A stretch of 32,840 nucleotides of DNA. It comes from a virus. This document shows positions 1-32,840 of this stretch, piece after piece (the stretch's first letter is position 1; each line of letters opens with the position of its first letter). The position numbers and the translations under genes are program-made. The notes under the pieces are model-generated. The model saw only the letters and a list, made by a program, of their open reading frames with translations, did not search any database and was not told the DNA's origin. The DNA lies in the UHGV virus genome UHGV-0259093. One strand, written 5' to 3'.

Positions 1-514
<514 letters not shown>

Positions 515-516
515 AT

Positions 517-546
517 AAAAAAGCCCGTATTCGGCTACGGGCTTTT
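517..546. terminator. bidirectional rho-independent terminator between convergent genes
   Basis: Perfect 8-bp stem agcccgta (522-529) / tacgggct (536-543) with 6-nt loop, flanked by an A-run upstream and T-run downstream. Confidence 0.6.
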
Positions 547-548
547 AT

Positions 549-1289
549 TCATTTATTTGATTCGAAGATATCGAAAATTGATGAATCATTGATATTTAAA
601 TTCTCAAACTCATTGTGTAAATCTTCTTTTAGCCTGATGATTTCACTAGAAAGGTCATAAGCTATAGATACATGTGGATTGTCAGTCAAATTCCATGTTA
701 AATCCTCAAACTCTTTAACTTCATTGTCATTTATAGTAATACCCCAATAACCCATTATTATAGTTAGAAGGGTGATAAGTTCTGTTTGTTTAGAATTAAT
801 TTGTTCAAACTGCTTTAAGATTTTTGAAAAACTATCTTTATTATGAGGTTTAACACTCCATCCCAAAATTTTCAATTTACTATATTCGCTAATCAAATCT
901 CTATAGTTTTTTGAAGATAACCCTATTACACTATCAAAAGATTTAATAAGACCATGCATAACTTTAACTTGTGTAAAACGCACCGACTTTGTATCGATTA
1001 AACAACATAACCATCTATTAAATGTATTTTCTAATATTGTAATTGTGAATTGCTTTTGTGTATTAGGTAAATGTGTAGATAAAATATTTGAAGAATGTTC
1101 AATAGCTAATTCTTGAGTAGCATCTCTTTTCCAGTTTTTAGCAATCAAAAAACCTTTATATGCAACAAAAGCCATAAAAATATTTGCTATTGATGAAAGC
1201 CAGTCGGCAAGACTTCCAATATCAGAATGGGTTCCATATAAAATTAAAACTGATATAAAACCTAAAATCACATAAGGAATCTTTTTCAT
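549..1289 (-). CDS. two-TM membrane protein of unknown function, paralog A of the 26318-27028 protein
   Basis: N-terminal hydrophobic helix (YVILGFISVLILY), then DIGSLADWLSSIANIFMAFVAY, nearly identical to DLGSLADWISSVSAIGTLGVAWLAY in ORF 26318-27028. C-terminal ~170 aa soluble. Confidence 0.7.
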   Translation of the reverse strand: MKKIPYVILGFISVLILYGTHSDIGSLADWLSSIANIFMAFVAYKGFLIAKNWKRDATQELAIEHSSNILSTHLPNTQKQFTITILENTFNRWLCCLIDTKSVRFTQVKVMHGLIKSFDSVIGLSSKNYRDLISEYSKLKILGWSVKPHNKDSFSKILKQFEQINSKQTELITLLTIIMGYWGITINDNEVKEFEDLTWNLTDNPHVSIAYDLSSEIIRLKEDLHNEFENLNINDSSIFDIFESNK

Positions 1290-1300
1290 GAATCCATCTC

Positions 1301-9913: not shown

Positions 9914-12097
9914 TTATGAGTTTCTTCTCTGAGAATCACGTACAGCCTGTACAACACTGTTTTGATATTTCTTTAGATTAGCCTGAAATTGTTTATCATC
10001 GCTCATGCCGTAGTTATACATAGGGGCATTTACGATAATATCGCCACCACCAGTACCGTTACCGTTGCTATCTTGATTATCTAAGAATTGAGTTAGTTTC
10101 TTATTAGCCTCTGGTTGTACTACACGTTCACCCGCTTTAAGTACAAATGACTTATCATTATAGCTTGCAGGAAGGTTATCTACGCCGCCGTGGAATTGAC
10201 CGCTATTAGATGCACCTTTTGCTGTACTGATAATACTCATACCCATACCTGCAATCTGTGCATATGCCGCTAGGTTCTGTGGGAAACCTAAAGATAGTGC
10301 ACTTGCTAACGCCTCTTGAATCTTCATAATGGTCATAGAGATGGTAATACCCTTCTGTACTGCATAGAACGCCTGAGCCGCCCCGGATGACTCACCAAAA
10401 GCCGCCGCCATACCATCACCGATCTGTGTCATTGCAGATTCAGAAGTAGATAGAATATTCATGTACTCTTGATTCTGAATCTGTAGTGCTTTAGTTGCGT
10501 ACTGTGCTGTAATTGCCGCCTTACGCTTTTCAAAAGATTCTTTATCCTGAATTAGCAATTCATTCTGTTTTAGAATTGCATCTCTTTCTTCTTGCATACG
10601 TTCCATATCGTAAGAAGTGGTATCAAGTCCTAAAGATTGATCAAGTTGATTTCCTAAGTAATTAGACTGTTGTTTATTTAGATCACCGTTCGCAAGTAAA
10701 GCATTTTGATCTAGTGTCTGTTGGTTAGGGTTACTATAACCAATCATCTGATTGATCATATTAAGTCTACCCGCCGCCCCTGCTGTTAGTTGGTCGTTTA
10801 GTAATTCCTGTAGTTTTACATCAGATAAGCCTAATGTTTTTGCACTCTTCTTAATTACGTTTACGATTTCGTTTTGCTGGCGTTTGAATTCTGCTAACTG
10901 ACGTTCATTAGTACCTTCAGTCTGATCTACAAGTACCTTATCTAATGCGGCCTGTGCTGCAATGCGTTGTTGTGCTGCTTTAGCCTGTTCGCTGGCTGCT
11001 GCTTTAGCCGCTGCCGCTGCTGCCTTAGCTGCTTTCTCTGCGGCCTTTTTAGGATCTTCTAATGGTGTCCATGCTGCGTTACCACGTGGGTTAGTTACTG
11101 TGGCTTTACCAGTTGGTAAATTACTATTCAGTACAGGCATGTTATTTTTATTCTTTTCGGCGTTAGCTTGATCAATTAATGCAAGTGCATCATCACCTAA
11201 GCCAAAACCTAAGCCCATTGATTTTAGAAGTTTACTAAAGCTGGCTGCTCGGTTCATTTGAGTTTCCCAAAATCCCTTTGCTGTATCACCTTCTTTCATT
11301 GCTGCAATGAATTCATTAGTAGCAGATACAATAGGGTTTAATGTTTCAATCAAATATTCCTGGCCTGTATCCAGTAGAGTACGTAGATTATTATCGAATT
11401 CTTCATAGGCTTTAGCTTGATCTTCACTAACTGCTACAGTTTGTTTTTTAATATTCGCCATTGCTTCAGAGTAACTATTAAATTCACTGAGTACTCCAGT
11501 TAGACGGGAACCATTACTAGCTACTGCTTCCATTGCATAGGTTATTTCTGCTTGTGTTTTTCCTGCATCTCTCATTTTATAATAGAGATCTACCATTGCT
11601 TCAATACCGCCATTGGCTTTACCTACATATTTTGTAAAGTCATTAACGTTTAAACCCATCTCTTTTACGACGGTAATAAACTCACCTGTACCCGCTGCGT
11701 ACCCCTCACCCATTTTATCGGATGTATCTTGCGAAATATCCGCTAGACCTTCTGCATCTATACCAGTTTGTCTAAATGCCTTTTGTAGTTTCTGTAGGTC
11801 GGTTACTGATATACCAGATCGTGTAGAAAGTTGATTTAATTCACGTACTAACCCGTTAACCTTAAGTACAAGTGCACCTACTGCCGTTCCTGCACCTAGT
11901 GCTACTGCGGAAATACCACCGATACCCGTTGAAAGTTTCCCGAATACTTGAGAAGTATTAGATGCAAAACCACCTAATGATCCCCCGGCTTTTTTACCGA
12001 ATGCATCTACTCTTTGTTCTGCCTGTTGTAGTGCTTTAGATAGTCCTGTACTGTCACCATCTATTTCTACTTTAATTTTTTCGTTCTTCCTTGCCAT
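9914..12097 (-). CDS. tail tape measure protein
   Basis: 727 aa, largely alpha-helical and Ala/Gln/Lys-rich with poly-Ala stretch (AAEKAAKAAAAAAKAAASEQAKAAQQ). Located directly after the frameshifted chaperone pair. Confidence 0.85.
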   Translation of the reverse strand: MARKNEKIKVEIDGDSTGLSKALQQAEQRVDAFGKKAGGSLGGFASNTSQVFGKLSTGIGGISAVALGAGTAVGALVLKVNGLVRELNQLSTRSGISVTDLQKLQKAFRQTGIDAEGLADISQDTSDKMGEGYAAGTGEFITVVKEMGLNVNDFTKYVGKANGGIEAMVDLYYKMRDAGKTQAEITYAMEAVASNGSRLTGVLSEFNSYSEAMANIKKQTVAVSEDQAKAYEEFDNNLRTLLDTGQEYLIETLNPIVSATNEFIAAMKEGDTAKGFWETQMNRAASFSKLLKSMGLGFGLGDDALALIDQANAEKNKNNMPVLNSNLPTGKATVTNPRGNAAWTPLEDPKKAAEKAAKAAAAAAKAAASEQAKAAQQRIAAQAALDKVLVDQTEGTNERQLAEFKRQQNEIVNVIKKSAKTLGLSDVKLQELLNDQLTAGAAGRLNMINQMIGYSNPNQQTLDQNALLANGDLNKQQSNYLGNQLDQSLGLDTTSYDMERMQEERDAILKQNELLIQDKESFEKRKAAITAQYATKALQIQNQEYMNILSTSESAMTQIGDGMAAAFGESSGAAQAFYAVQKGITISMTIMKIQEALASALSLGFPQNLAAYAQIAGMGMSIISTAKGASNSGQFHGGVDNLPASYNDKSFVLKAGERVVQPEANKKLTQFLDNQDSNGNGTGGGDIIVNAPMYNYGMSDDKQFQANLKKYQNSVVQAVRDSQRRNS

Positions 12098-22868: not shown

Positions 22869-23463
22869 TTAATTGATCATCTATTTTTTCCTGTAGTTTG
22901 ATTTTTAATTCTAATGCGTCTGCTGATTCGAATAATTCAACATAACTTGACGCGGGAATACTTCTTAATACTTGGCGTAGTTGGTAGAAGTATTGGGATA
23001 AAGTTTGCTGTACTACTGCTACTGGTATTAGCTCGCCGGATTGCTGACGTAATTCCATTTCTTTAATATCAGCTTCTGCTTCTAACTTACGTAGTGTTGC
23101 TTTTTGTATTTGGCCTTTTGTATCACCGCTTCTTAGTGGTTCGATTACGTTTGCAAGTAACCAATCGTCAACTAATTTCTTAGGCCAGGTGATATCTAAA
23201 CCTTTACCAGACCATATACGGCTAACAGTAGAATGCTCTACGCCGAAACGATCCGCGATTTCTTGCCACGTGTAGCGGGTTCCATCGTCTTTAATTTTTG
23301 CCATTTTGTTTAGTCCTTGTTTAGTACAATAAACCTGTACTTTCCTTTTATTTCGTTTTGTTTGTTTTCGATTAGAAATCCCACGAATTTTAAATACAAT
23401 TCGCGGCGAAAACTCGATTTTTTTGTTCTCAATTAGAGAACCTAAAGTTAAAACTTCACTCAC
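22732..23463 (-). CDS. terminase small subunit with HTH; likely true start at ATG 23304 (MAKIKDD...)
   Basis: YTWQEIADRFGVEHSTVSRIW helix-turn-helix, acidic C-terminus, directly upstream of the large terminase. The track start at 23463 is a GTG. aagga RBS precedes the internal ATG. Confidence 0.65.
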   Translation of the reverse strand: MSEVLTLGSLIENKKIEFSPRIVFKIRGISNRKQTKRNKRKVQVYCTKQGLNKMAKIKDDGTRYTWQEIADRFGVEHSTVSRIWSGKGLDITWPKKLVDDWLLANVIEPLRSGDTKGQIQKATLRKLEAEADIKEMELRQQSGELIPVAVVQQTLSQYFYQLRQVLRSIPASSYVELFESADALELKIKLQEKIDDQLNEIGSYEYEGTYTDEQLPEDDEGTNEGGEVDPTSEATTTSGMGRE

Positions 23464-23533: not shown

Positions 23534-24472
23534 ATGAAACACATAATCCAAACCAGAAGTGTTTTTAAGGATATCGAAGACTCTTTATTTAGTGAGTTGC
23601 ATTCAGCTAAGACAAGTATCAAAATCTGTGTTGCATGGATAAACTTTGAGCTTTTTGAAAATATATTATTATCTAAGGCTAAAGAAGGTGTTGAAGTTGA
23701 GATATTAGTTAATAATGATTATATCAATACAAAATTTCTTGATAAAATATCTGATAATATAAAACCATTAATTAATCTAATTAAAAACCCTATTAGTAAC
23801 CACTTAATGCATCATAAATTTTGTATCATTGATGATGAAGTTTTGATTACTGGCAGTTATAATTGGTCAAAAAGAGCACCATATCATTATGAAAATATAA
23901 TAATCATCCGTAATGATTTCAATCTAATAATGCAATTTAAACATGAGTTTGCAGATTTAAAATACATGGGTGCAATGCCAAGTACAGAATTTAATGCATT
24001 TAAAGTAACCAAAAATCTCAATAGATTTGTTGTTGGCACATATAGTTCATCTGTGGGGATATATGAAACCGTCACATTGCAGTTATGGGAAATTGATATT
24101 AACAACTTAACTTTTGAACGACATGGCGAAATGGATATCCCTTTCTTCAATTATTTATTAGATATTAATACTGATGATCATTATCTTATTGATGAAAAAG
24201 AAAGGTACATCGATCTATATGATCAAGAGCGTAGACAGATGGAGACTATCCAAAGTCATTTTAGAAGATTAAATTGTTCAATTCATGCTTATGGAACAGC
24301 AATAATAGCGAACGAGAGCGAATACCTTGAAGGTTATGAAGAGCCTATTCGTGTAATTCACTTCAATTGGATAGATATGCGATTAAGCAAAGTATTACCC
24401 TCTTCTTTGCCCGCAACTATGGAACTTGAAGGATTATGGCACGAAATATATGCTCCAAATGGATATATTTAA
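23534..24472 (+). CDS. phospholipase D-family (single HKD motif, Nuc-like) nuclease with an uncharacterised ~160-aa C-terminal domain
   Basis: HHKFCIIDDEVLITGSYNWSKRA is a canonical HxK(x4)D(x6)GSxN motif. RBS aagga 6 nt before the ATG. Markedly AT-rich. Confidence 0.75.
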   Translation: MKHIIQTRSVFKDIEDSLFSELHSAKTSIKICVAWINFELFENILLSKAKEGVEVEILVNNDYINTKFLDKISDNIKPLINLIKNPISNHLMHHKFCIIDDEVLITGSYNWSKRAPYHYENIIIIRNDFNLIMQFKHEFADLKYMGAMPSTEFNAFKVTKNLNRFVVGTYSSSVGIYETVTLQLWEIDINNLTFERHGEMDIPFFNYLLDINTDDHYLIDEKERYIDLYDQERRQMETIQSHFRRLNCSIHAYGTAIIANESEYLEGYEEPIRVIHFNWIDMRLSKVLPSSLPATMELEGLWHEIYAPNGYI

Positions 24473-25388: not shown

Positions 25389-26114
25389 TTATTTCCTTAA
25401 TAACTTTTTTAATTCCTCAACTGTCTTCATTTCTTTTCCAATATGAATCATTGCATGACAGTTTGCACATAAAGGTATAAGATCTTCAATTGGGTCAATC
25501 TTATAGCGTTTACCAATAGTATGTAGTGGCACTATATGATGAACATGAATATAATTTTTTCCGTGACTTCCATACACTTCTTCAAAATTAAAACCACAGA
25601 CACCACAACTCAAACCATGTTTATCGATACATTCTTTTCTAGCCTTTGGATCTCTCTCATAGTACGTAGCAATCCTTTGATGCTTTTCACCTTCATAGTA
25701 TTCACTTTCTATTTCAGGTGTGAATGAATAGTAATCTTCATCGGTGGCATACCAATCTCCATCTTTTTTAGTAAGATATTTTCGTACTATTTTCTTTTCA
25801 AAATGTTTAATCCTAGCAGCACCATTTTCAGTTGTTTTCTCATGCCTAGTCTGGCTAAAGGTGAAAAGACTATACCCTTCATGTAAAATTTTATCTATGT
25901 GTTCGATAGATTGTGTATAACCATTTTTTTTGTGTCCATTTACATTTTCACGCCAACTGCTAGCCAAGATTAAAACTTTCTTACCATCATCTGATCTAAG
26001 ATCTTCCCAAGCTCCAAAAATTATTTTTTTGTTGATCTCATCAATAAATGACCAACTCCAGTTATCATTTTTACATGTAGCACCCAAAGAACGCATGAAC
26101 TCTGTTCGGGACAT
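25389..26114 (-). CDS. HNH-family endonuclease of restriction type (COG3183-like) with an uncharacterised N-terminal domain
   Basis: C-terminus ERDPKARKECIDKHGLSCGVCGF...IHVHHIVPL...DLIPLCANCHAMIH carries the Cys pair and His/Asn-type HNH motif of predicted HNH restriction endonucleases. Confidence 0.75.
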   Translation of the reverse strand: MSRTEFMRSLGATCKNDNWSWSFIDEINKKIIFGAWEDLRSDDGKKVLILASSWRENVNGHKKNGYTQSIEHIDKILHEGYSLFTFSQTRHEKTTENGAARIKHFEKKIVRKYLTKKDGDWYATDEDYYSFTPEIESEYYEGEKHQRIATYYERDPKARKECIDKHGLSCGVCGFNFEEVYGSHGKNYIHVHHIVPLHTIGKRYKIDPIEDLIPLCANCHAMIHIGKEMKTVEELKKLLRK

Positions 26115-27073: not shown

Positions 27074-27772
27074 ATGACTACTCTCACTAGAACTTATAAT
27101 TTACCAAATGAGCTAGTTGAACATTTTTCAAATAACATTGTCTATTTCGAAAAACTTTTGTCTAAGGATTTTTCTGACTTAAATGTTAATGTAGCACCAG
27201 AAGACATTAAGAAAATAGAAAAATCTTTCGAAGTATCACATAGAATACGTGATTTCGAAATCAATCTGTATTGGCAAAGACTGAACTTCCTTTGGGCCAT
27301 TACAGCATTGCTATTTGCTGGATGGGGAACATTGATCTTTAAAATCATCGAATTCAATGGAGGGGAAGCACCTTATATTATATTTGCCGCCTTATCATTT
27401 CTCTCACTTATAGGTGGGATTGTAACTATATTCACAAGCTTTATCATTGAGGCAGGTAAGCATTGGCAAAAGGTTTGGGAGTTTCATGTTCACGCTCTTG
27501 AACCTTTTGTATCAGGTCATTTATATGCAATTCAGTTTTCTTATAAAAATAAAAAAAAGGCATCTATAAGTAGAAGCGTAGAAACTTTCAATTATGCTTT
27601 GCTGTTTCTTTGGGCATGTTCAGCAGTATTCGCCGCAATCATCCCTTCACAAATAGGGAACGGTCTTGCAGGCATTATCCAATTAGTTATTTCTCTTCTT
27701 ATAGTTGGTGCTTTTGTTTATATACGCAACTCTGTTACTAAAAAGGAGTCTATTAAAATTCAGCTTGATTAA
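27074..27772 (+). CDS. four-TM integral membrane protein of unknown function
   Basis: Hydrophobic segments FLWAITALLFAGWGTLIF, YIIFAALSFLSLIGGIVTIFTSFII, FNYALLFLWACSAVFAAII, GIIQLVISLLIVGAFVYI. Follows paralog B by 45 nt. Confidence 0.65.
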   Translation: MTTLTRTYNLPNELVEHFSNNIVYFEKLLSKDFSDLNVNVAPEDIKKIEKSFEVSHRIRDFEINLYWQRLNFLWAITALLFAGWGTLIFKIIEFNGGEAPYIIFAALSFLSLIGGIVTIFTSFIIEAGKHWQKVWEFHVHALEPFVSGHLYAIQFSYKNKKKASISRSVETFNYALLFLWACSAVFAAIIPSQIGNGLAGIIQLVISLLIVGAFVYIRNSVTKKESIKIQLD

Positions 27773-27792: not shown

Positions 27793-28002
27793 TTAAGCAG
27801 CCCCATAATGGGGCTTTCTTTTTTTAGCATTTACTTTTTGAATGCTCATAAGAATCTCACGTACCTTTGCTTCATTATCACCTGCATCATATAGTACCCC
27901 ATCTTTCCAGTACTGACCCAGTAGTTCTACTTTTGGTAAGCCCGGCATTGCCCTTACTCCATCTTCGTGATCAATATGTAATTCAAGTGATCCAATAATC
28001 AT
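27793..28002 (-). CDS. small hypothetical protein
   Basis: 69-aa ORF overlapping the next gene by 4 nt. 3' end overlaps a plus-strand terminator hairpin, which lowers confidence. Confidence 0.35.
   Translation of the reverse strand: MIIGSLELHIDHEDGVRAMPGLPKVELLGQYWKDGVLYDAGDNEAKVREILMSIQKVNAKKRKPHYGAA
27799..27825 (+). terminator. rho-independent terminator after the membrane-protein pair
   Basis: Stem agcccca (27799-27805) / tggggct (27809-27815), 3-nt loop, then ttcttttttt. Confidence 0.6.
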
Positions 28003-28199
28003 TGCACGAAAGTTGTTAGGGTTAATTGAAAGTATTCTGCATCGTCTGGTTGTAGTTCAGCGTAATATTCTGGTGTGCTATCAAATGTAATTTCATTATT
28101 GATCATTACGCCCTGTGTATTTACTGCATATCTACGTTGTTTCATTCGGTCAAATAATAGTATTCCTTTCACGCGGTGATATGTTGTTAGTTCCCTCAT
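27999..28199 (-). CDS. small hypothetical protein
   Basis: 66-aa ORF in an overlapping three-gene string. Confidence 0.4.
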   Translation of the reverse strand: MRELTTYHRVKGILLFDRMKQRRYAVNTQGVMINNEITFDSTPEYYAELQPDDAEYFQLTLTTFVQ

Positions 28200-28525
28200 T
28201 TGGTTAGTCCTTGGTAGTAAGCCTTAGTAGCTCTGATATTGAATTCTTTGTTTAGGTGTGTATATGATGGCATATGCCCGTTATCCGTCATGTATCGCTC
28301 TATGTAGGCCGTAAGTAGTTCTAACTTGGTTGGGCTTACATCTGGTGTATCACTCAATAGAGAGCGTTTAGGGGCGTTATAGAGGCCATCACTTCGACCG
28401 CCTTGATTCTTGATATTGTGGCGTAGTGTATTCCACTTACCGGGCTTTTGTTTTGGCATAGTATTGTACTCCTGTACTGGTTGATTAATTGGGGCGGCGA
28501 CTCGTTCACACCTGCGGCGGTTCAC
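28196..28525 (-). CDS. small hypothetical basic protein; probable true start at ATG 28459 (MPKQKPGKW...)
   Basis: Track start is a GTG. The internal ATG has an aggag RBS about 10 nt upstream. Confidence 0.4.
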   Translation of the reverse strand: MNRRRCERVAAPINQPVQEYNTMPKQKPGKWNTLRHNIKNQGGRSDGLYNAPKRSLLSDTPDVSPTKLELLTAYIERYMTDNGHMPSYTHLNKEFNIRATKAYYQGLTK

Positions 28526-28764
28526 TGCGTGGCGACTTCAAGAGACTTTGAATAACTGACTTTCAGTAGTATCTCTTGAGTACTTACACCTACTGGAGTG
28601 AGCGAAAGCGAGAAAAGCACGCTTGCGGGTTTTCGATGCGATAGCGAGAAAAACGCAATGTGATACCCTTATGTGTTTTTTATAGGGATAATAGATAAGA
28701 CGCTTTAGCGGATTAGCTATTATCCCTCTGAATAATAGATATGGCGTATTTTATATCTGTTTTT

Positions 28765-28924
28765 CATCTTTCCATTAGAAAGTAGGATAATTATAATAGG
28801 TTGGAAAGATGCCATTTTGCCCCCCATTTTAACGGTAGAATGCGGGTTTCAGGGGTGTTGTTGGCCATATTTTCACACCATCTTTCCATCAAAGGGATTC
28901 CCACGCTAAACAGTTGGAAAGATG
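28765..28924. promoter_or_regulatory. two copies of an operator-like inverted-repeat pair in a ~400-bp non-coding region
   Basis: catctttccat at 28765-28775 and 28879-28889; ttggaaagatg at 28801-28811 and 28914-28924. Each pair is a 10/11 inverted repeat separated by 24-25 bp; the two pairs are ~114 bp apart. Confidence 0.5.
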
Positions 28925-28926
28925 AT

Positions 28927-29466
28927 TTATAGTGAATTTATGTATACCTTGATACTTCCTAAGCTAGTTCCATCCCTCATCATCTGGTGTACTTTCTTTT
29001 TTTCGTGCTGTGTTAGCTGTCGTGCATCACCCTTTAGTGCATACTTGATCATTACGCCGTGATTGTATGCCTCTAATAGTTCGTGTGCGGCCTTTACTGC
29101 AATGTTTCTATAATTATATAGCATTGACTTGTTTAGCGGCTTCTCGTTCCATTTCATGCGATTCTGGCGGCGAGTATTCACGGTATGTTGTACTTCCTCT
29201 ATTCCAATCATAGGACACTCTAAAACCAGCTTTAGGATCTCTAACCTACTAACCTTAGTACGGCTAGTGGTTCCTTCAAACTCTTTAGTAATGACTTCAT
29301 CAATAATATCTATTGCTTCTGGTGTAAACTGATTCAAAAACTTATAACCTGATAAAACGTTGTGTAAGTCTGTATTGTCGTATAATTTCTTTTTTCCTGC
29401 CATAATAAATACCTTTATAAAATGTGTTATGTTCCTTAATGGCGTTATGGTGTTTTCTCCCACCAT
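28927..29466 (-). CDS. hypothetical protein; probable start at ATG 29403 (MAGKKKLY...)
   Basis: aaagg RBS before the internal ATG. No motif recognised. Confidence 0.45.
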   Translation of the reverse strand: MVGENTITPLRNITHFIKVFIMAGKKKLYDNTDLHNVLSGYKFLNQFTPEAIDIIDEVITKEFEGTTSRTKVSRLEILKLVLECPMIGIEEVQHTVNTRRQNRMKWNEKPLNKSMLYNYRNIAVKAAHELLEAYNHGVMIKYALKGDARQLTQHEKKKVHQMMRDGTSLGSIKVYINSL

Positions 29467-29478
29467 AACGCCTTTTTA

Positions 29479-29964
29479 TTAGTTGTCTTTTGCAACCTTT
29501 GTATATGTCTGTCTATGTGTACTTCTATTGTACTTTTCATTCATGAATAGCGTGATATTGATACATGACATTCCACCAGTGTATAACGCCTTTACTTCAT
29601 CTTTTTGTACTGGTGTTAGACGTGGTTCATTTTGTTTCTTACGTACTGCCTTACATGAATTTTCACTATATGTAATCCACTGCAAATTAGAAATATTGTT
29701 GTCTCGTTTATCACTATTGATATTATCTACAACTAATCTTTTATTTGTTTGGGGTTTACTTAGAAATGTTTCTGCTACGAGTCTGTGTGTCTCTATCGGA
29801 TATGATTTAGATTTCCCATCCTCATAAACAGTTAAAGTAACTTTATAGTACCCATTACTTTTACTATAACTCTGTGTTAGATAATTACCCGTTTTAGTAT
29901 TGCGTACTTCTCCGTTACTACTTACTTCATAATTTACATATTGTGTTTGTTTCCATAATGTCAT
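29479..29964 (-). CDS. HNH homing endonuclease (NUMOD4-like N-terminus plus HNH_3 motif)
   Basis: YEVSSNGEVRNTKTGNYL and HRLVAETFLSKPQTNKRLVVDNINSDKRDNNISNLQWITYSEN are the hallmark motifs of phage-encoded HNH homing endonucleases. Confidence 0.8.
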   Translation of the reverse strand: MTLWKQTQYVNYEVSSNGEVRNTKTGNYLTQSYSKSNGYYKVTLTVYEDGKSKSYPIETHRLVAETFLSKPQTNKRLVVDNINSDKRDNNISNLQWITYSENSCKAVRKKQNEPRLTPVQKDEVKALYTGGMSCINITLFMNEKYNRSTHRQTYTKVAKDN

Positions 29965-30264: not shown

Positions 30265-30419
30265 TACTTCTTTCCTCCTAAGATTACTTGTTGATTGAGT
30301 AGATATTGTAAAGCGGTACTCATTGATTTTGCTTTCCCTTCATCAATGATACTTTGTAGTACATTGTGTTGATGTTCGTTTAGACGTGCTGATACTTTGT
30401 ATTCTTTATTTTCTTTCAT
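30264..30419 (-). CDS. ribbon-helix-helix (CopG/Arc-like) small DNA-binding protein, 51 aa, below the ORF-track cutoff
   Basis: My translation MKENKEYKVSARLNEHQHNVLQSIIDEGKAKSMSTALQYLLNQQVILGGKK. Short beta-strand (KVSARL) followed by two helices fits the RHH layout. Confidence 0.45.
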   Translation of the reverse strand: MKENKEYKVSARLNEHQHNVLQSIIDEGKAKSMSTALQYLLNQQVILGGKK

Positions 30420-30467
30420 TGATTTTCCTTTTGTCTGCAAATCCTTAAAAATTTCATGTAAAAATCA

Positions 30468-30485
30468 CCCCGTAGGGATACGGGG
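30468..30485 (-). terminator. hairpin terminator for minus-strand transcription entering from the right
   Basis: Stem ccccgta / tacgggg with ggga loop; T-run follows on the minus strand. Confidence 0.4.
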
Positions 30486-30828
30486 TAATAACAAAATCTA
30501 AGGAGGAGGGATTTTAATATTCACACTTATTTATGAGATGAGAGCGGTCGCCCCCTTCATATACTATTATTATATCACATTTTGCCCATTTCGTCCCAGA
30601 AATCGACAAAATCAATTTTAAGTGGCTGATTTATATGTATTTATTACAGAAGTCGCGATTATCGCCATAATGCATAAGAAGAGATATACTAAAAATGCAA
30701 TGTATAGATAAACTATCCACCCGGTGATCATAAACACCATACCTACCACTAATACAAAAGCACTGACTAACCAATCTAACATAGTTTCCCCTTATAATTA
30801 TTATGTACAATTATTTATCAATAAGACG

Positions 30829-30941: not shown

Positions 30942-32840
30942 CTAGATCTGGTCTATCCGATAACGCTCTATGAACTCTTTACGTGTTAAACCAGTCGATT
31001 CTAATGCAGTGGCTATATCCTTTGGAACTCGACCATTCAAGGCAATACTATATGTATTGCCTTCATACACAATGTCTACTCGATCATACTTTCCGGTATT
31101 AGGCCAGAATGAAGCCCCACTTATTTCACTATAACCAACCACTTCTAACATCTCATTAGCAGTATTGAACAGATCTAAATAACTTTGTTCAATTTTATCA
31201 AGTTGTTCCACTGCTTTATTAAATAATGGCAGATTGCTAGTGGTAAGAAATCCTTCATCTCTGATACTTACATTATCAACAGAAGAAAATTCAACTTTAA
31301 ACGCCCAATGTGGTTTTCTATCAGTTCCACCAAAAACTAACCATTCATCTTTAAAATGATACTTTATTTTTATCGTTATACACCCATCAGTTTTATCAAC
31401 TATAACACTTTCAATAATAGAACTAATTACTTTCCTTATTTTATTTCTATCCGTATCCTGCATATTTGTAAAAACCGCCCACTGAATAAGAATCATAAAT
31501 TCATTTATATCGACTTCTAGAGATCCTTTACCTTTCAGTGAATATAAGCGTTCTTTTAACTTATCAACTTCCAGAACAGTCTTTTTACGTTCCATATCAA
31601 ACGCATTTAGTTGAACTGCTAACGCACTAACATTAGGAGCAATTGCTATTGCTTGAGCCATGTTTGTTATGCGAGATTCCAGATCAGTTATCAACGTTTC
31701 TTTTCTACTGAGGTCTTCTTCTATCACAGTTGTGTCAATACCATCTTTTAGTCTCTTATTCATGTAACCGATCAGTAGTGAAATGATCGTACAGTGTTCA
31801 ACTAATTGTGCTGATATAGACCAGCCAGAACAGTTTTTTTGTAAGTGAACCCCATTAGTACAAATATAGCGAGCACTGCCATGATTCATGAAAGAATGCA
31901 TAGTTCCTCCACACTTGCTACACCGTAACACCTGCAACCCTGATAACAATTTAATTTCTTCTACTTTGTCTTTCTTAGCCTTGAAGTTGTTTTGCTGCTT
32001 ACGTTCAGCCAAGGTTAAATACTCTGCTTCATCTTTGCATAACCATGGATAGTAGTTATCAAGTTTGTAAGTAGCACCACCAGCATTGATAGTCCTTTCA
32101 CCAATCAACGCCCGATTATCACGCATCTTTTTCAATACCTGATAATCCCATTCTTTACCCTTTAAACCATTAGGATATTTTTTATCGAGATGACGCTTTA
32201 CTGTATAGATGCCATTCCCATCTAAAAACATGTCTATAGCTTCGCGAGCGATACTCCAGTAAACGGGATGTTCTTTTACTGCTTCATATTGCGAACCTGA
32301 ATCATCTATCCAAAATGGATGGCGACCAACTGACTTAATGTTTACTGGCAACCCTGCTTTATGACGTTCGACCAAGGCAACAACATTGCCTATGGTCCTG
32401 TTAGATTTCGTTTCTGATTCTTCATTGCCACGGATAAACATCAGAATAGAAATCATCAGATCAGTAGGGTTTTGTCTGATGGATTCTCTGTTATAGACCT
32501 TCCGATCCATTCCTGTGACAATCGTTAGCCCTAAACCAATCAATTCAAGGAATAAACGAAGTGCTTCATCCACCTGATCGCGTGATAGTCGGTCGAGGTT
32601 TTCACAGTAAAGCCAAGAGTCAGACGGTATAGCATTATTTTTTACGGCGTCTATGAAGTCACCCAACTTACCCGCCCTATTTTTTCCCCTGTAAGCACTC
32701 GTGCCAGGTTCCAAAATTTCAACCATTTCAAGCCCCGCTTCTTCAGCATAGGCTTTCGCTGCCGCTACCTGCCTGTTCTTGGTTGTTCCTTTTTCTTGGC
32801 GATCACTTGACCACCTGATATAGCTATAAAGTTGCGGCAT
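30942..32840 (-). CDS. large serine recombinase (phage integrase type)
   Basis: N-terminal YIRWSSDRQ with catalytic Ser and LDRLSRD typical of the resolvase domain. 632 aa, Cys-rich zinc-ribbon-like segment (CSKCGG...CTNG). ATG is the last three bases of the window. Confidence 0.9.
   Translation of the reverse strand: MPQLYSYIRWSSDRQEKGTTKNRQVAAAKAYAEEAGLEMVEILEPGTSAYRGKNRAGKLGDFIDAVKNNAIPSDSWLYCENLDRLSRDQVDEALRLFLELIGLGLTIVTGMDRKVYNRESIRQNPTDLMISILMFIRGNEESETKSNRTIGNVVALVERHKAGLPVNIKSVGRHPFWIDDSGSQYEAVKEHPVYWSIAREAIDMFLDGNGIYTVKRHLDKKYPNGLKGKEWDYQVLKKMRDNRALIGERTINAGGATYKLDNYYPWLCKDEAEYLTLAERKQQNNFKAKKDKVEEIKLLSGLQVLRCSKCGGTMHSFMNHGSARYICTNGVHLQKNCSGWSISAQLVEHCTIISLLIGYMNKRLKDGIDTTVIEEDLSRKETLITDLESRITNMAQAIAIAPNVSALAVQLNAFDMERKKTVLEVDKLKERLYSLKGKGSLEVDINEFMILIQWAVFTNMQDTDRNKIRKVISSIIESVIVDKTDGCITIKIKYHFKDEWLVFGGTDRKPHWAFKVEFSSVDNVSIRDEGFLTTSNLPLFNKAVEQLDKIEQSYLDLFNTANEMLEVVGYSEISGASFWPNTGKYDRVDIVYEGNTYSIALNGRVPKDIATALESTGLTRKEFIERYRIDQI

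What the first reader, a model, noticed from the sequence alone, without database searches (positions are those of the whole stretch)
28526..28926. About 400 bp of non-coding DNA with duplicated operator-like inverted repeats, direct repeats and a 10-bp perfect hairpin
Contains (i) two copies of catctttccat-N24/25-ttggaaagatg spaced ~114 bp apart, (ii) direct repeats gcgagaaaa at 28608 and 28644 plus agcga units, and (iii) a perfect 10-bp inverted repeat gggataatag (28685-28694) / ctattatccc (28717-28726). It sits upstream of a three-gene minus-strand string of small proteins. This is the densest regulatory-looking region in the window: a likely operator/promoter hub, possibly an origin, or an attP candidate for the serine recombinase.
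Basis: seen in the sequence. Interest (0 to 1): 0.55.

Follow-up and report, generated by a model that had tools for sequence, protein, structure and literature searches.

The report
Orphan-protein binding array, probable phage origin
A 466-bp gene-free stretch of a prophage carries four copies of a 10-bp site that change in step with the unknown 158-residue protein encoded next to it, followed by a conserved hairpin-rich segment; it is most likely the phage's replication origin, or else its main on/off promoter, and it is not the integration site.

Summary
CATCTTTCCA occurs five times in 32.8 kb, four of them here as two inverted pairs. The 10-bp hairpin and the GCGA(A/T)AGCGAGAAAA repeats are at the stated coordinates.

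Eighteen related loci from Enterobacteriaceae prophages share one layout, read on the minus strand:
- an orphan ~160-aa helical protein gene;
- 2-7 copies of a type-specific site starting just after its stop codon;
- a spacer, then one more site abutting an A+T-only box;
- a family-wide conserved ~300-nt non-coding segment with two conserved hairpins, CTCGC and TCAAAGT repeats and a G+C-rich block.

The sites follow the 160-aa protein, not the nearby ribbon-helix-helix (RHH) protein.

In three sister loci (two distinct sequences) a 650-aa helicase-like gene plus a perfect inverted repeat around a 26-bp A+T box replaces the whole cassette.

The region stays intact inside integrated prophages, so it is not attP. 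A lambda-like cos motif lies upstream of the terminase small-subunit gene (terS) instead.

Best reading (about 0.4): an initiator-iteron replication origin. Main rival (about 0.33): an operator/promoter with a structured leader.

No known protein or RNA family matches. This is a new variant of a known kind, of moderate interest.

The parts
28927..29403 (-). Gene for the orphan 158-aa all-helical protein, the presumed binder of the repeats. Its stop codon lies 2 nt before the first repeat.
28879..28924 (.). Gene-proximal inverted pair: CATCTTTCCA, 26 nt, TGGAAAGATG.
   Evidence: Unchanged in L002 although the surroundings differ by about 19%.
28831..28858 (.). 28-bp spacer element ACACCCCTGAAACCCGCATTCTACCGTT (minus strand). 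It carries TAGAAT on the plus strand. Relatives have it in either orientation.
   Evidence: Same orientation in L002 and L150, inverted in L003 and L031. Other types carry CACTATATATAGTG palindromes or IHF (integration host factor)-consensus sites at this place.
28765..28811 (.). Second inverted pair: CATCTTTCCA, 27 nt, TGGAAAGATG. It brackets the A+T box.
   Evidence: Same geometry as the perfect 14-15-bp inverted repeats around a 26-bp A+T box in the helicase-type relatives.
28787..28798 (.). A+T-only box TATTATAATTAT (minus strand). It holds TATAAT on both strands. It marks the boundary between the type-specific and the family-conserved DNA.
   Evidence: An A+T-rich, mostly A+T-only box of 12-19 bp directly follows the last repeat in 17 of 18 loci. 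The plus-strand promoter-like match TTTCCA-17-TATAAT is at 28769-28797. No -35 on the minus strand (read from the sequence).
28685..28726 (-).
   Evidence: A hairpin sits at the equivalent place in the relatives with at least 7 different stem sequences. In 10 of 16 distinct loci it folds better than 95% of dinucleotide shuffles, mean z -1.9. It is not terminator-like on either strand.
28623..28658 (-). Hairpin H2: TTGCG-TTTTTC...GAAAAC-CCGCAA.
   Evidence: 93% of cells paired against 31-52% when the partner is slid. 3 pairs show changes on both sides. Covariation 0.208 against 0.081 in shuffles, 0 of 500 reaching it.
28600..28617 (-). Pyrimidine-rich CTTTTCTCGCTTTCGCTC, the second copy of the direct repeat. 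It belongs to a family-wide excess of CTCGC motifs.
   Evidence: repeat family D1. CTCGC occurs 37 times in 18 regions against 7.8 +/- 2.7 in shuffles.
28545..28566 (-). CTGAAAGT / TCAAAGT direct repeats, 14 bp apart.
   Evidence: TCAAAGT occurs 25 times in 18 regions against 1.7 expected, 23 of them on the gene strand.
28491..28536 (-). G+C-rich block with tandem CGCC..CAGGTGTGAAC units, ending in GAGTCGCCGCCCC.
   Evidence: Conserved in most relatives. On the plus strand GGGCGGCGAC equals lambda bases 1-10. A 64-bp copy survives in three E. coli genomes next to an IS3 element.
28196..28462 (-). First downstream gene: a conserved 88-aa protein with a C-terminal helix-turn-helix-like domain. 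Its ribosome-binding site sits in the loop of a small GTAC/GTAC hairpin.
29441..29480 (+). Conserved intrinsic terminator oriented to stop transcription antisense to the 158-aa gene.
   Evidence: 12-pair stem followed by TTTTTATT on the plus strand. The stem shows compensatory changes and the A-run is always on the gene strand in 7 relatives.

Best explanation
The gene-free stretch 28463-28926, read on the minus strand, is the cis-acting partner of the orphan 158-aa protein encoded immediately upstream. It is most likely the prophage's origin of replication.

Shown:
- Four copies of CATCTTTCCA(AC) start 2 nt after the gene's stop codon, as two inverted pairs. The second pair brackets a 12-bp A+T-only box.
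- In relatives the repeat sequence changes whenever the protein type changes.
- The repeats occur nowhere else in a complete E. coli relative of this prophage.
- Downstream lies a family-wide conserved ~300-nt segment with two structurally conserved hairpins, short strand-specific repeats and a G+C-rich block.

Inferred:
- The protein is a type-specific origin-binding initiator.
- Copies bound on the two sides of the spacer face each other. In some relatives a host-factor bend in the spacer may help them meet. The complex opens the A+T box.
- The conserved hairpin segment is where host replication or priming functions enter, possibly through transcription from the A+T box.
- Sister phages do the same job with a different cassette: a self-contained helicase-like protein plus a perfect inverted repeat around an A+T box.
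- A conserved antisense terminator on the far side of the gene suggests that a countertranscript controls initiator level.
For: 1. Repeats and protein covary. At least 9 repeat types go with at least 9 protein types.
   - L005 and L020 share a 92%-identical RHH protein, but their 160-aa proteins are 20% identical and their repeats differ.
   - L020 and L156 have 85%-identical 160-aa proteins and the same repeats, while their RHH proteins are 54% identical.
2. The layout matches rep-ori cassettes. Sites lie immediately 3' of the ORF, on both sides of a spacer that is A+T-rich in most types, and point towards each other. This is how the ori of staphylococcal pathogenicity islands (SaPIs) is described in PMC9371898.
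3. The sites are confined to this one locus. All four ATTAGCCC copies in 43 kb of the E. coli relative lie here.
4. In three sister loci (L022/L023 and L154/L160, two distinct sequences) of the same phage family the cassette is replaced. These phages have the same recombinase type, L160 is in the same yegD target, and L160 has the same Nu1/GpA terminase.
   - The replacement is a 645-664-aa protein with GTGKS and DECH motifs and sub-threshold DEAD, ResIII and Helicase_C matches.
   - It is followed by a perfect 14-15-bp inverted repeat around a 26-bp A+T box.
   - There is no 160-aa gene and no conserved segment.
5. Neither this phage nor its complete E. coli relative has any recognisable replication gene.
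6. A small Yersinia island carries the cassette alongside its own CI/Cro pair, so there the cassette is not needed as the immunity repressor.
7. Up to 7 sites per locus (L151) is iteron-like.
8. Four relatives have IHF-consensus sites in the spacer: 5 found in all against 0.7 expected.
Against: - The 158-aa protein has no recognisable initiator, winged-helix or helicase feature and no fold match.
- The A+T box is only 12-19 bp, short for an unwinding element, and nearly always contains a good -10 hexamer. It could simply be a promoter.
- There are no DnaA boxes.
- The window's own spacer is not A+T-rich.
- The helicase assignment in the sister phages rests on sub-threshold matches. 'Same position' may reflect a hot spot for gene exchange rather than the same function.
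- Covariation of repeats with the adjacent gene could partly reflect physical linkage.
- Nothing here shows replication.
Confidence: 0.4

Rival explanations
1. Operator/promoter hub. The 158-aa protein is a type-specific transcription factor, either the immunity repressor of a phage that has no CI, or an activator. It binds the four half-sites around a minus-strand promoter whose -10 is the A+T box. That promoter drives the 88-aa gene and, beyond it, the packaging and structural genes. The conserved ~300 nt is a structured 5' leader RNA that acts as an attenuator, an antitermination target or a translational control.
For: - One repeat ends 4-5 nt before a TATAAT- or TAATAT-like hexamer in nearly every locus, and the second half-site falls at about +8 to +18.
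- All downstream genes are on the same strand and start right after the segment.
- H1 and H2 are conserved as structures, and the ribosome-binding site lies in a hairpin loop.
- The many specificities among close relatives resemble immunity groups.
- No CI-like repressor was found in this phage.
Against: - There is no -35 (at most 3 of 6 bases) in the loci I inspected by eye (WIN, L007, L015, L022, L154).
- The site centre near -22 is unusual for an activator.
- The 28-bp spacer element flips orientation between relatives.
- The conserved segment is missing in helicase-type sister phages that keep the same 82-91-aa downstream gene, so that gene does not need it.
- A helicase-like protein is an odd substitute for a transcription factor.
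- Structural relatives of the protein occur in virulent phages, which need no lysogeny repressor.
- The Yersinia island has CI/Cro as well.
- G-U against C-A counts in H2 give no strand signal.
Confidence: 0.33
2. The conserved segment encodes a stand-alone regulatory RNA. Either it is a processed small RNA that acts in trans, or a plus-strand countertranscript starts in the region, runs antisense through the 158-aa gene and stops at the conserved terminator at 29441-29480.
For: - The folding z-score is -3.65 on the minus strand and -3.16 on the plus strand.
- H1 and H2 are conserved structures.
- The best sigma-70-type match in the region is on the plus strand, TTTCCA-17-TATAAT at 28769-28797.
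- The antisense-oriented terminator is conserved, with compensatory stem changes.
Against: - No Rfam family matches, even at E <= 10.
- The segment contains no terminator.
- The plus-strand promoter is not recognisably conserved in other types.
- A countertranscript would fit both main hypotheses, so it does not compete with them.
Confidence: 0.12
3. cos packaging site. The G+C-rich block is cosN, and the neighbouring repeats are terminase small-subunit sites like those of lambda cosB.
For: - The terminase is lambda-like (GpA large subunit, Nu1-like small subunit).
- The window plus strand has GGGCGGCGAC, equal to lambda 1-10, at 28492.
- It also has GCGGGTTTTCG, equal to lambda 14-24, at 28625.
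- The block is G+C-rich in a 36% G+C genome.
- A small Yersinia island without packaging genes carries the cassette.
Against: - The helicase-type sister phage L160 has the same terminase type but lacks the whole segment.
- CGAGTTTTCGC is conserved about 90 nt upstream of terS in the window, in the E. coli relative and in L160. That is where lambda has cos.
- The motif here points the opposite way relative to the terminase genes and lies 5 kb from them.
- The E. coli relative has a different block.
- This reading would not explain the type-specific repeats at all.
Confidence: 0.05
4. attP for the serine recombinase.
For: Only the presence of inverted repeats within about 4 kb of a serine recombinase gene.
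Against: - The region is intact and flanked by phage genes in chromosomally integrated copies: E. coli, Yersinia and the Pseudocitrobacter contig.
- In E. coli the two halves of the split yegD gene flank the prophage, and the junction is 38 bp from the recombinase start codon.
- The same cassette occurs next to a tyrosine integrase.
Confidence: 0.01

Closest known systems
Rep-ori cassettes of phage satellites (staphylococcal SaPI pri-rep-ori), as described in PMC9371898
   Same: - The repeats lie immediately downstream of the initiator ORF.
- They sit on both sides of a central region and point in opposite directions.
- Protein and repeats are type-specific and swap together.
   Different: - SaPI Rep is a helicase of about 500 aa or more with a winged-helix domain. 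Here the protein is a 158-aa all-helical orphan.
- A helicase-like protein appears only in the sister cassette.
- SaPI iterons are 5-6 nt. Here the sites are 10-17 bp.
- SaPI origins have no conserved hairpin segment attached.
Phage lambda ori with the O protein (my own knowledge of the system)
   Same: - A type-specific initiator with its own repeats.
- An adjacent A+T-rich stretch and then a palindrome.
- Dependence on host helicase, and on transcription nearby.
   Different: - Lambda ori lies inside the O gene.
- O is 299 aa.
- Lambda also encodes P, the helicase loader. No counterpart was recognised here.
Repressor-operator immunity regions of temperate phages (lambda CI/OR, P22 immI with Arc and Mnt; my own knowledge)
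   Same: - Dyad-symmetric sites overlapping a promoter core.
- Many specificities among close relatives.
- An RHH gene nearby.
   Different: - The sites lie downstream of the regulator gene, not upstream or divergent from it.
- The half-sites are 36-37 bp apart centre to centre.
- The protein belongs to no known repressor family.
- The RHH protein does not covary with the sites.
Lambdoid Q gene, PR' promoter with qut site, and late-operon leader (my own knowledge)
   Same: - A small type-variable protein gene immediately upstream of the late operon.
- A binding element inside the promoter spacer.
- A long non-coding leader before the late genes.
   Different: - No match to any Q family in Pfam or the PDB.
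- No -35, whereas PR' is a strong constitutive promoter.
- No clear terminator in the leader.
- Up to 7 binding sites.
Transcription-primed origins (ColE1 RNA II, T7 primary origin, T4 oriF/oriG, lactococcal phage c2 ori; my own knowledge)
   Same: A promoter-like A+T box followed by a structured non-coding stretch, in a gene-free region between early and late genes.
   Different: Those systems lack an array of type-specific protein sites next to a dedicated gene. Nothing here shows that a transcript primes DNA synthesis.

Membership tests
Iteron-type origin with adjacent initiator gene (rep-ori cassette) | Repeated initiator-binding sites immediately next to the initiator gene, specific to the initiator type | tested here: met
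   The sites start 1-10 nt after the stop codon in the 160-aa-type loci. At least 9 site types track at least 9 protein types, and not the RHH protein. Binding itself is inferred.
Iteron-type origin with adjacent initiator gene (rep-ori cassette) | Sites on both sides of an A+T-rich, easily melted region, in opposite orientation | tested here: inconclusive
   The opposite orientation is met in most loci, and an A+T box abuts the last site in 17 of 18. The box is only 12-19 bp, and the window's own spacer is not A+T-rich.
Iteron-type origin with adjacent initiator gene (rep-ori cassette) | Initiator of a recognised family (winged-helix Rep, O-like, helicase or primase fusion) | tested here: not met
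Iteron-type origin with adjacent initiator gene (rep-ori cassette) | Supports autonomous replication that depends on the initiator | not testable with these tools
   This needs a plasmid replication assay or marker-frequency sequencing.
Serine-integrase attP | The site is split into attL and attR in the integrated prophage and lies at the prophage ends | tested here: not met
   The region is intact and internal in integrated copies. In E. coli the junction within yegD is 38 bp from the recombinase gene.
Lambda-type cos site | Present in every phage that uses the same terminase, next to the Nu1-like small-subunit gene | tested here: not met
   L160 has the Nu1/GpA terminase but lacks the segment. 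The motif conserved in the window, L026 and L160 lies upstream of terS.
Lambda-type cos site | Virion DNA ends map to the site | not testable with these tools
   No virion read data are available. There is only 10- and 11-nt identity to lambda bases 1-24.
Sigma-70 promoter with flanking operators | -35 and -10 hexamers 16-18 bp apart on the strand of the downstream genes | tested here: not met
   The scan finds no minus-strand promoter in the region. The only match, 10 of 12, is on the plus strand. A -10 is present on the minus strand, but the -35 matches at most 3 of 6 bases in the loci I inspected by eye.
Lambdoid Q antiterminator with qut site | The protein belongs to a Q family, and the late promoter is strong and followed by a terminator | tested here: not met
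   No Q-family hit. There is no -35, and no canonical terminator in the window's segment.
Any Rfam RNA family | Covariance-model match at or near the gathering score | tested here: not met
   No match at gathering score over the whole window. The best match in the region at E <= 10 scores 15.6 bits against cut-offs of 39-117.

The most novel reading that the evidence does not exclude
A previously unrecognised replicon type in an uncharacterised lineage of ~32-kb serine-integrase prophages and small islands of Enterobacteriaceae. It would consist of:
- a 150-190-aa all-helical initiator family with no known relatives, diversified into many DNA specificities;
- its iterons, placed around an A+T box;
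- an obligatory conserved hairpin-bearing entry or priming element.

The whole unit would be interchangeable as a cassette with a helicase-plus-inverted-repeat origin.
Probability: 0.33. Interest if true: 0.7.

Novelty: new variant of a known kind. Interest (0 to 1): 0.55.

Why it matters
This prophage lineage has no cultured relative: a DNA search of the 50,697-record phage collection with window 8000-32840 found no match, and its terminase is at best 36% identical to a known one. It also has no recognisable replication or immunity genes.

The cassette described here is the best candidate for one of those two core functions. It comes with a natural experiment: at least nine protein/site specificities on a constant background, plus a helicase-type replacement.

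If it is an origin, it adds a new initiator family, and it supplies orthogonal protein-DNA pairs that could be used as compatible replicons or switches in enterobacteria.

If it is the lysis-lysogeny operator, it defines a new repressor fold and new immunity groups.

Either way, it would let annotation pipelines give a provisional name to a gene now labelled 'hypothetical' and to a ~470-bp stretch they now leave blank.

Tried and rejected
**RNA and tRNA searches**
- Rfam at gathering score on the whole window, and at E <= 10 on the region: nothing.
- tRNA and tmRNA: none.

**DNA searches**
- The region against phages and plasmids: no match. Window 8000-32840 against phages: no match.
- The region against E. 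coli genomes: only 4 short matches, one in a true relative and three in a remnant next to an IS3 element.
- The exact 15-mer TTGCGTTTTTCTCGC in viral contigs: mostly chance hits, which I did not use.

**Protein searches**
- 158-aa protein, Foldseek against viral models: only uncharacterised proteins of phage RaK2 and Pseudomonas phages.
- The afdb50 structure library was not available.
- Helicase-like protein: no relative in isolated phages, PHROGs or the PDB, and no further viral-contig loci.
- No homology between that protein and the 160-aa family.

**Motif, coding and strand tests**
- DnaA boxes: none.
- Small ORFs in the region on both strands: rejected as coding.
- RNAalifold on the MAFFT alignment recovered only H2. 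H1 is too variable in sequence to align, so I tested it locus by locus against shuffles.
- Strand of the hairpins: G-U against C-A counts and the folding energy of the two strands are uninformative.

**Hypotheses set aside**
- A type III toxin-antitoxin or retron reading: there are only two 15-nt repeats, no 36-nt units, no reverse transcriptase and no toxin gene.
- A CRISPR-repeat mimic: GTTCACTGC matches the start of what I recall of the type I-F repeat, but the repeat's hairpin is absent.
Full report
**The observation**

- CATCTTTCCA at 28765-28774 pairs with TGGAAAGATG at 28802-28811.
- The same pair recurs at 28879-28888 and 28915-28924.
- GCGA(A/T)AGCGAGAAAA lies at 28602 and 28638.
- A perfect 10-bp inverted repeat lies at 28685-28694 and 28717-28726, inside a longer imperfect palindrome.

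The 10-mer is exact five times in the 32.8-kb window, four times here.

The gene-free stretch is really 28463-28926. The downstream gene most likely starts at the ATG at 28462 (88 aa, preceded by AGGAG). The upstream gene starts at 29403 (158 aa), as its homologues do.

Small ORFs on either strand are not conserved. Substitutions against a relative fall 4/5/6 on the three codon positions.

**Context**

The window is essentially a whole prophage.
- It carries a serine recombinase at its right edge, a lambda-type terminase (GpA), a lambda-family portal, a capsid, a tail, and cargo genes. Almost everything is on the minus strand.
- An identical 88-aa protein is encoded in a 528-kb contig of Pseudocitrobacter faecalis DSM 27453.
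- No isolated phage is related at the DNA level.
- A complete E. coli relative is 32.5 kb long and splits the host gene yegD. The junction is 38 bp from the recombinase start codon.
- Neither genome has a recognisable replication gene or a CI-type repressor.

**Relatives and shared anatomy**

Protein and DNA searches gave 18 distinct related regions from Enterobacter, Citrobacter, Salmonella, Yersinia, Escherichia and metagenomes. Read on the gene strand, they share one plan:
1. A gene for a 150-190-aa protein.
2. Beginning 1-10 nt after its stop codon, 2-7 copies of a 10-17-bp site in mixed orientation.
3. A 50-90-bp spacer.
4. One more copy, usually facing the cluster, directly followed by an A+T-rich, mostly A+T-only box of 12-19 bp. 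Examples are TATTATAATTAT, TTAATATAATAT and TATATTAATATTAA.
5. About 300 nt that is conserved across the family whatever the site type.

**Which protein goes with the sites**

The site sequence differs between types:
- CATCTTTCCAAC in the window and L002
- ATTAGCCC(A/C) in L007, L019 and L151
- TACCCTAAT in L005 and L010
- ACTTCGCAAGATG in L011, L020 and L156
- TTATTCCGATAATGGAA in L009
- GTG(T/C)CCGTTTT in L015 and L031
- CTTAATTCGGGGTG in L024
- CCGTAAC in L012
- TTTTTCCAAC in L003

The sites follow the 160-aa protein and not the nearby RHH protein.
- L005 and L020 have 92%-identical RHH proteins, 20%-identical 160-aa proteins, and different sites.
- L020 and L156 have 85%-identical 160-aa proteins, the same sites, and 54%-identical RHH proteins.

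Against L002 (19% divergent overall), none of the 16 substitutions in the first 165 nt hits the 46 site positions (P = 0.004). The stretch from the second pair to H1 is almost identical in the two, so recent exchange may contribute to this.

In the complete E. coli relative, all four copies of its 8-mer within 43 kb lie in this region.

I infer that the repeats are the binding sites of the adjacent protein. Physical linkage could produce part of this pattern, and binding has not been shown.

**The proteins**

The 158-aa protein is an orphan.
- It has no Pfam, PHROG or PDB-sequence match, singly or as a profile.
- A profile search of 1.84 billion proteins finds only 42 clusters, nearly all 150-186 aa.
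- Foldseek against viral models finds uncharacterised proteins of Klebsiella phage RaK2 (E 1.4e-8, TM 0.68-0.70) and of Pseudomonas phages.

The 88-aa protein has a confidently folded C-terminal helix-turn-helix-like domain. Its only matches are weak ones to LexA, TetR and CapW-type DNA-binding domains.

**The conserved segment**

In 10 of 16 distinct loci it folds better than 95% of dinucleotide shuffles. An A-rich tract follows it, so it is not a terminator in either direction.

The gcgagaaaa repeats are, respectively:
- the 5' arm of a second hairpin, H2, at 28623-28658;
- a pyrimidine-rich motif just after it.

H2 is paired in 93% of cells against 31-52% for slid partners. It shows U-A to C-G and C-G to G-C exchanges, and no shuffle out of 500 reaches its covariation score.

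Further on come strand-specific TCAAAGT repeats (25 found, 1.7 expected), an excess of CTCGC (37 against 7.8), and a G+C-rich block of tandem units just before the ribosome-binding site.

No Rfam family matches. Counts of G-U against C-A pairs do not say which strand, or whether RNA or DNA, forms the hairpins.

**What excludes attP and weakens cos**

attP is excluded. The region is intact and internal in integrated copies in three genera. It also occurs next to a tyrosine integrase in Yersinia.

For cos I noticed two identities on the plus strand:
- GGGCGGCGAC at 28492 equals lambda bases 1-10;
- GCGGGTTTTCG at 28625 equals lambda bases 14-24.

Three facts argue against cos here:
- Sister phage L160 has the same Nu1/GpA terminase but lacks the whole conserved segment.
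- A different lambda-like motif, CGAGTTTTCGC, is conserved about 90 nt upstream of terS in the window, the E. coli relative and L160. That is where lambda keeps cos.
- The E. coli relative has a different G+C block.

I therefore give cos a low probability here.

**Origin or operator?**

The decisive comparison is with three sister loci, L022/L023 and L154/L160, which represent two distinct sequences.
- L160 lies in the same yegD target.
- They share the recombinase type, and L160 the terminase type.
- They keep the 82-91-aa downstream gene.

At the position of the 160-aa gene they encode a 645-664-aa protein with GTGKS and DECH motifs. Its DEAD, ResIII and Helicase_C matches are consistent but sub-threshold.

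Immediately after that gene lies a perfect 14-15-bp inverted repeat around a 26-bp A+T box (GAGTATTATAATATATA). The conserved segment is absent. The window's second pair has the same geometry: 10-bp arms around a 27-bp A+T-rich spacer.

So a helicase-like protein with facing sites around an A+T box replaces a small protein with facing sites, an A+T box and a hairpin segment. This reads most naturally as two versions of a replication module.

The layout also matches the published description of SaPI origins. There the iterons lie immediately downstream of rep, on both sides of an A+T-rich centre, and point in opposite directions (PMC9371898).

The Yersinia island carries the cassette beside its own CI/Cro pair, so there it is not the immunity repressor.

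Against the origin reading:
- The A+T box is short and nearly always contains a good -10 hexamer.
- One half-site would lie at about -28 to -17 and the other at about +8 to +18, as operators around a promoter would.
- There are no DnaA boxes.
- The protein has no initiator hallmark.

The two readings are not exclusive. A transcription-activated or transcription-primed origin would satisfy both.

I put the origin reading at about 0.4 and the pure operator/promoter reading at about 0.33.

**Other points bearing on mechanism**

A conserved intrinsic terminator lies just upstream of the 158-aa gene. It is oriented to stop antisense transcription, and its stem shows compensatory changes. The best promoter-like match in the region is on the plus strand. 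Together these suggest a countertranscript across the gene. That is a common way to limit an initiator or a regulator, but it is untested here.

The spacer between the site clusters varies by type:
- a 28-bp element found in either orientation in different relatives;
- or TATATATA palindromes;
- or IHF-consensus sites.

This fits a bent nucleoprotein complex better than a simple unidirectional promoter.

**Verdict**

The finding is real and functional, and it is conserved as a cassette. The interpretation as a protein-binding control region holds. attP is refuted, and cos is unlikely.

The thing itself is a new variant of a known kind. It is either an initiator-iteron origin or an operator, built around an orphan protein family and an unusual conserved hairpin segment, in a prophage lineage that nobody has characterised. 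Simple experiments, listed under next steps, would decide between the two readings.

Noticed in passing
window 30460-30577 (minus strand): An extended -10 promoter TGATATAAT (30577-30569) is followed about 80 nt later by an intrinsic terminator: ACCCCGTA-TCCC-TACGGGGT plus GATTTTT, at 30486-30460. This lies just before the RHH gene, whose likely start is the ATG at 30419. It could be a small RNA or an attenuator.
   Followed up: no
window 29441-29480 (plus strand): An intrinsic terminator is oriented against the 158-aa gene. It is conserved in 7 relatives, with compensatory stem changes and the A-run always on the gene strand. This implies a transcript antisense to the gene.
   Followed up: partly
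window 23401-23416, and the matching places L026 ~32050-32070 and L160 ~10390-10410: CGAGTTTTCGC(C/T) is conserved about 90 nt upstream of the Nu1-like terminase small-subunit gene in three phages. It resembles lambda bases 12-25. This is the likelier cos site of the family.
   Followed up: partly
L022 289-2283 and 2284-2635; L160 3553-5490 and 5491-5591: Sister phages replace the 160-aa cassette. They carry a 645-664-aa SF2-helicase-like orphan protein (GTGKS, DECH) and a perfect 14-15-bp inverted repeat around GAGTATTATAATATATA. The two helicases are 74% identical, but their repeat arms differ.
   Followed up: partly
window 28831-28858: The 28-bp element ACACCCCTGAAACCCGCATTCTACCGTT lies between the two repeat pairs. 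L002 and L150 have it in the same orientation. L003 and L031 have it inverted. It reads TAGAAT or TATAAT on one strand.
   Followed up: partly
window 27900-27909: A fifth exact copy of CATCTTTCCA lies inside the 69-aa ORF, about 860 bp downstream of the array. It may be chance or an outlying site.
   Followed up: no
L006 8001-8064 (E. coli NZ_CP016404.1 and two other genomes): A 64-bp copy of the G+C-rich block, 95% identical, survives beside an IS3 element and a lipoprotein gene like that of L002. It looks like a decayed prophage of this family inside a defence island.
   Followed up: partly
L159 7256-16030 (Yersinia intermedia CP119768.1): The cassette also sits in a region of about 8 kb with no structural genes. 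That region holds a tyrosine integrase, CI/Cro, three small ORFs and defence-type cargo (mSLOG, DUF488, DuOB). It is either a satellite-like island or a remnant.
   Followed up: no
window 29479-29964, 25389-26114, 27074-27772, 23534-24472: There are two HNH endonuclease genes. The one next to the 158-aa gene is replaced by other homing-endonuclease-like genes in relatives. Plus-strand cargo includes an 8xMP membrane protein and a PLD-like protein.
   Followed up: no
window 1-1300: Homology to the E. coli relative starts near 1455, and that prophage's end corresponds to about 1300 in the window. The first ~1.3 kb, with ORFs at 221-514 and 549-1289, may therefore be extra cargo or host flank.
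   Followed up: no
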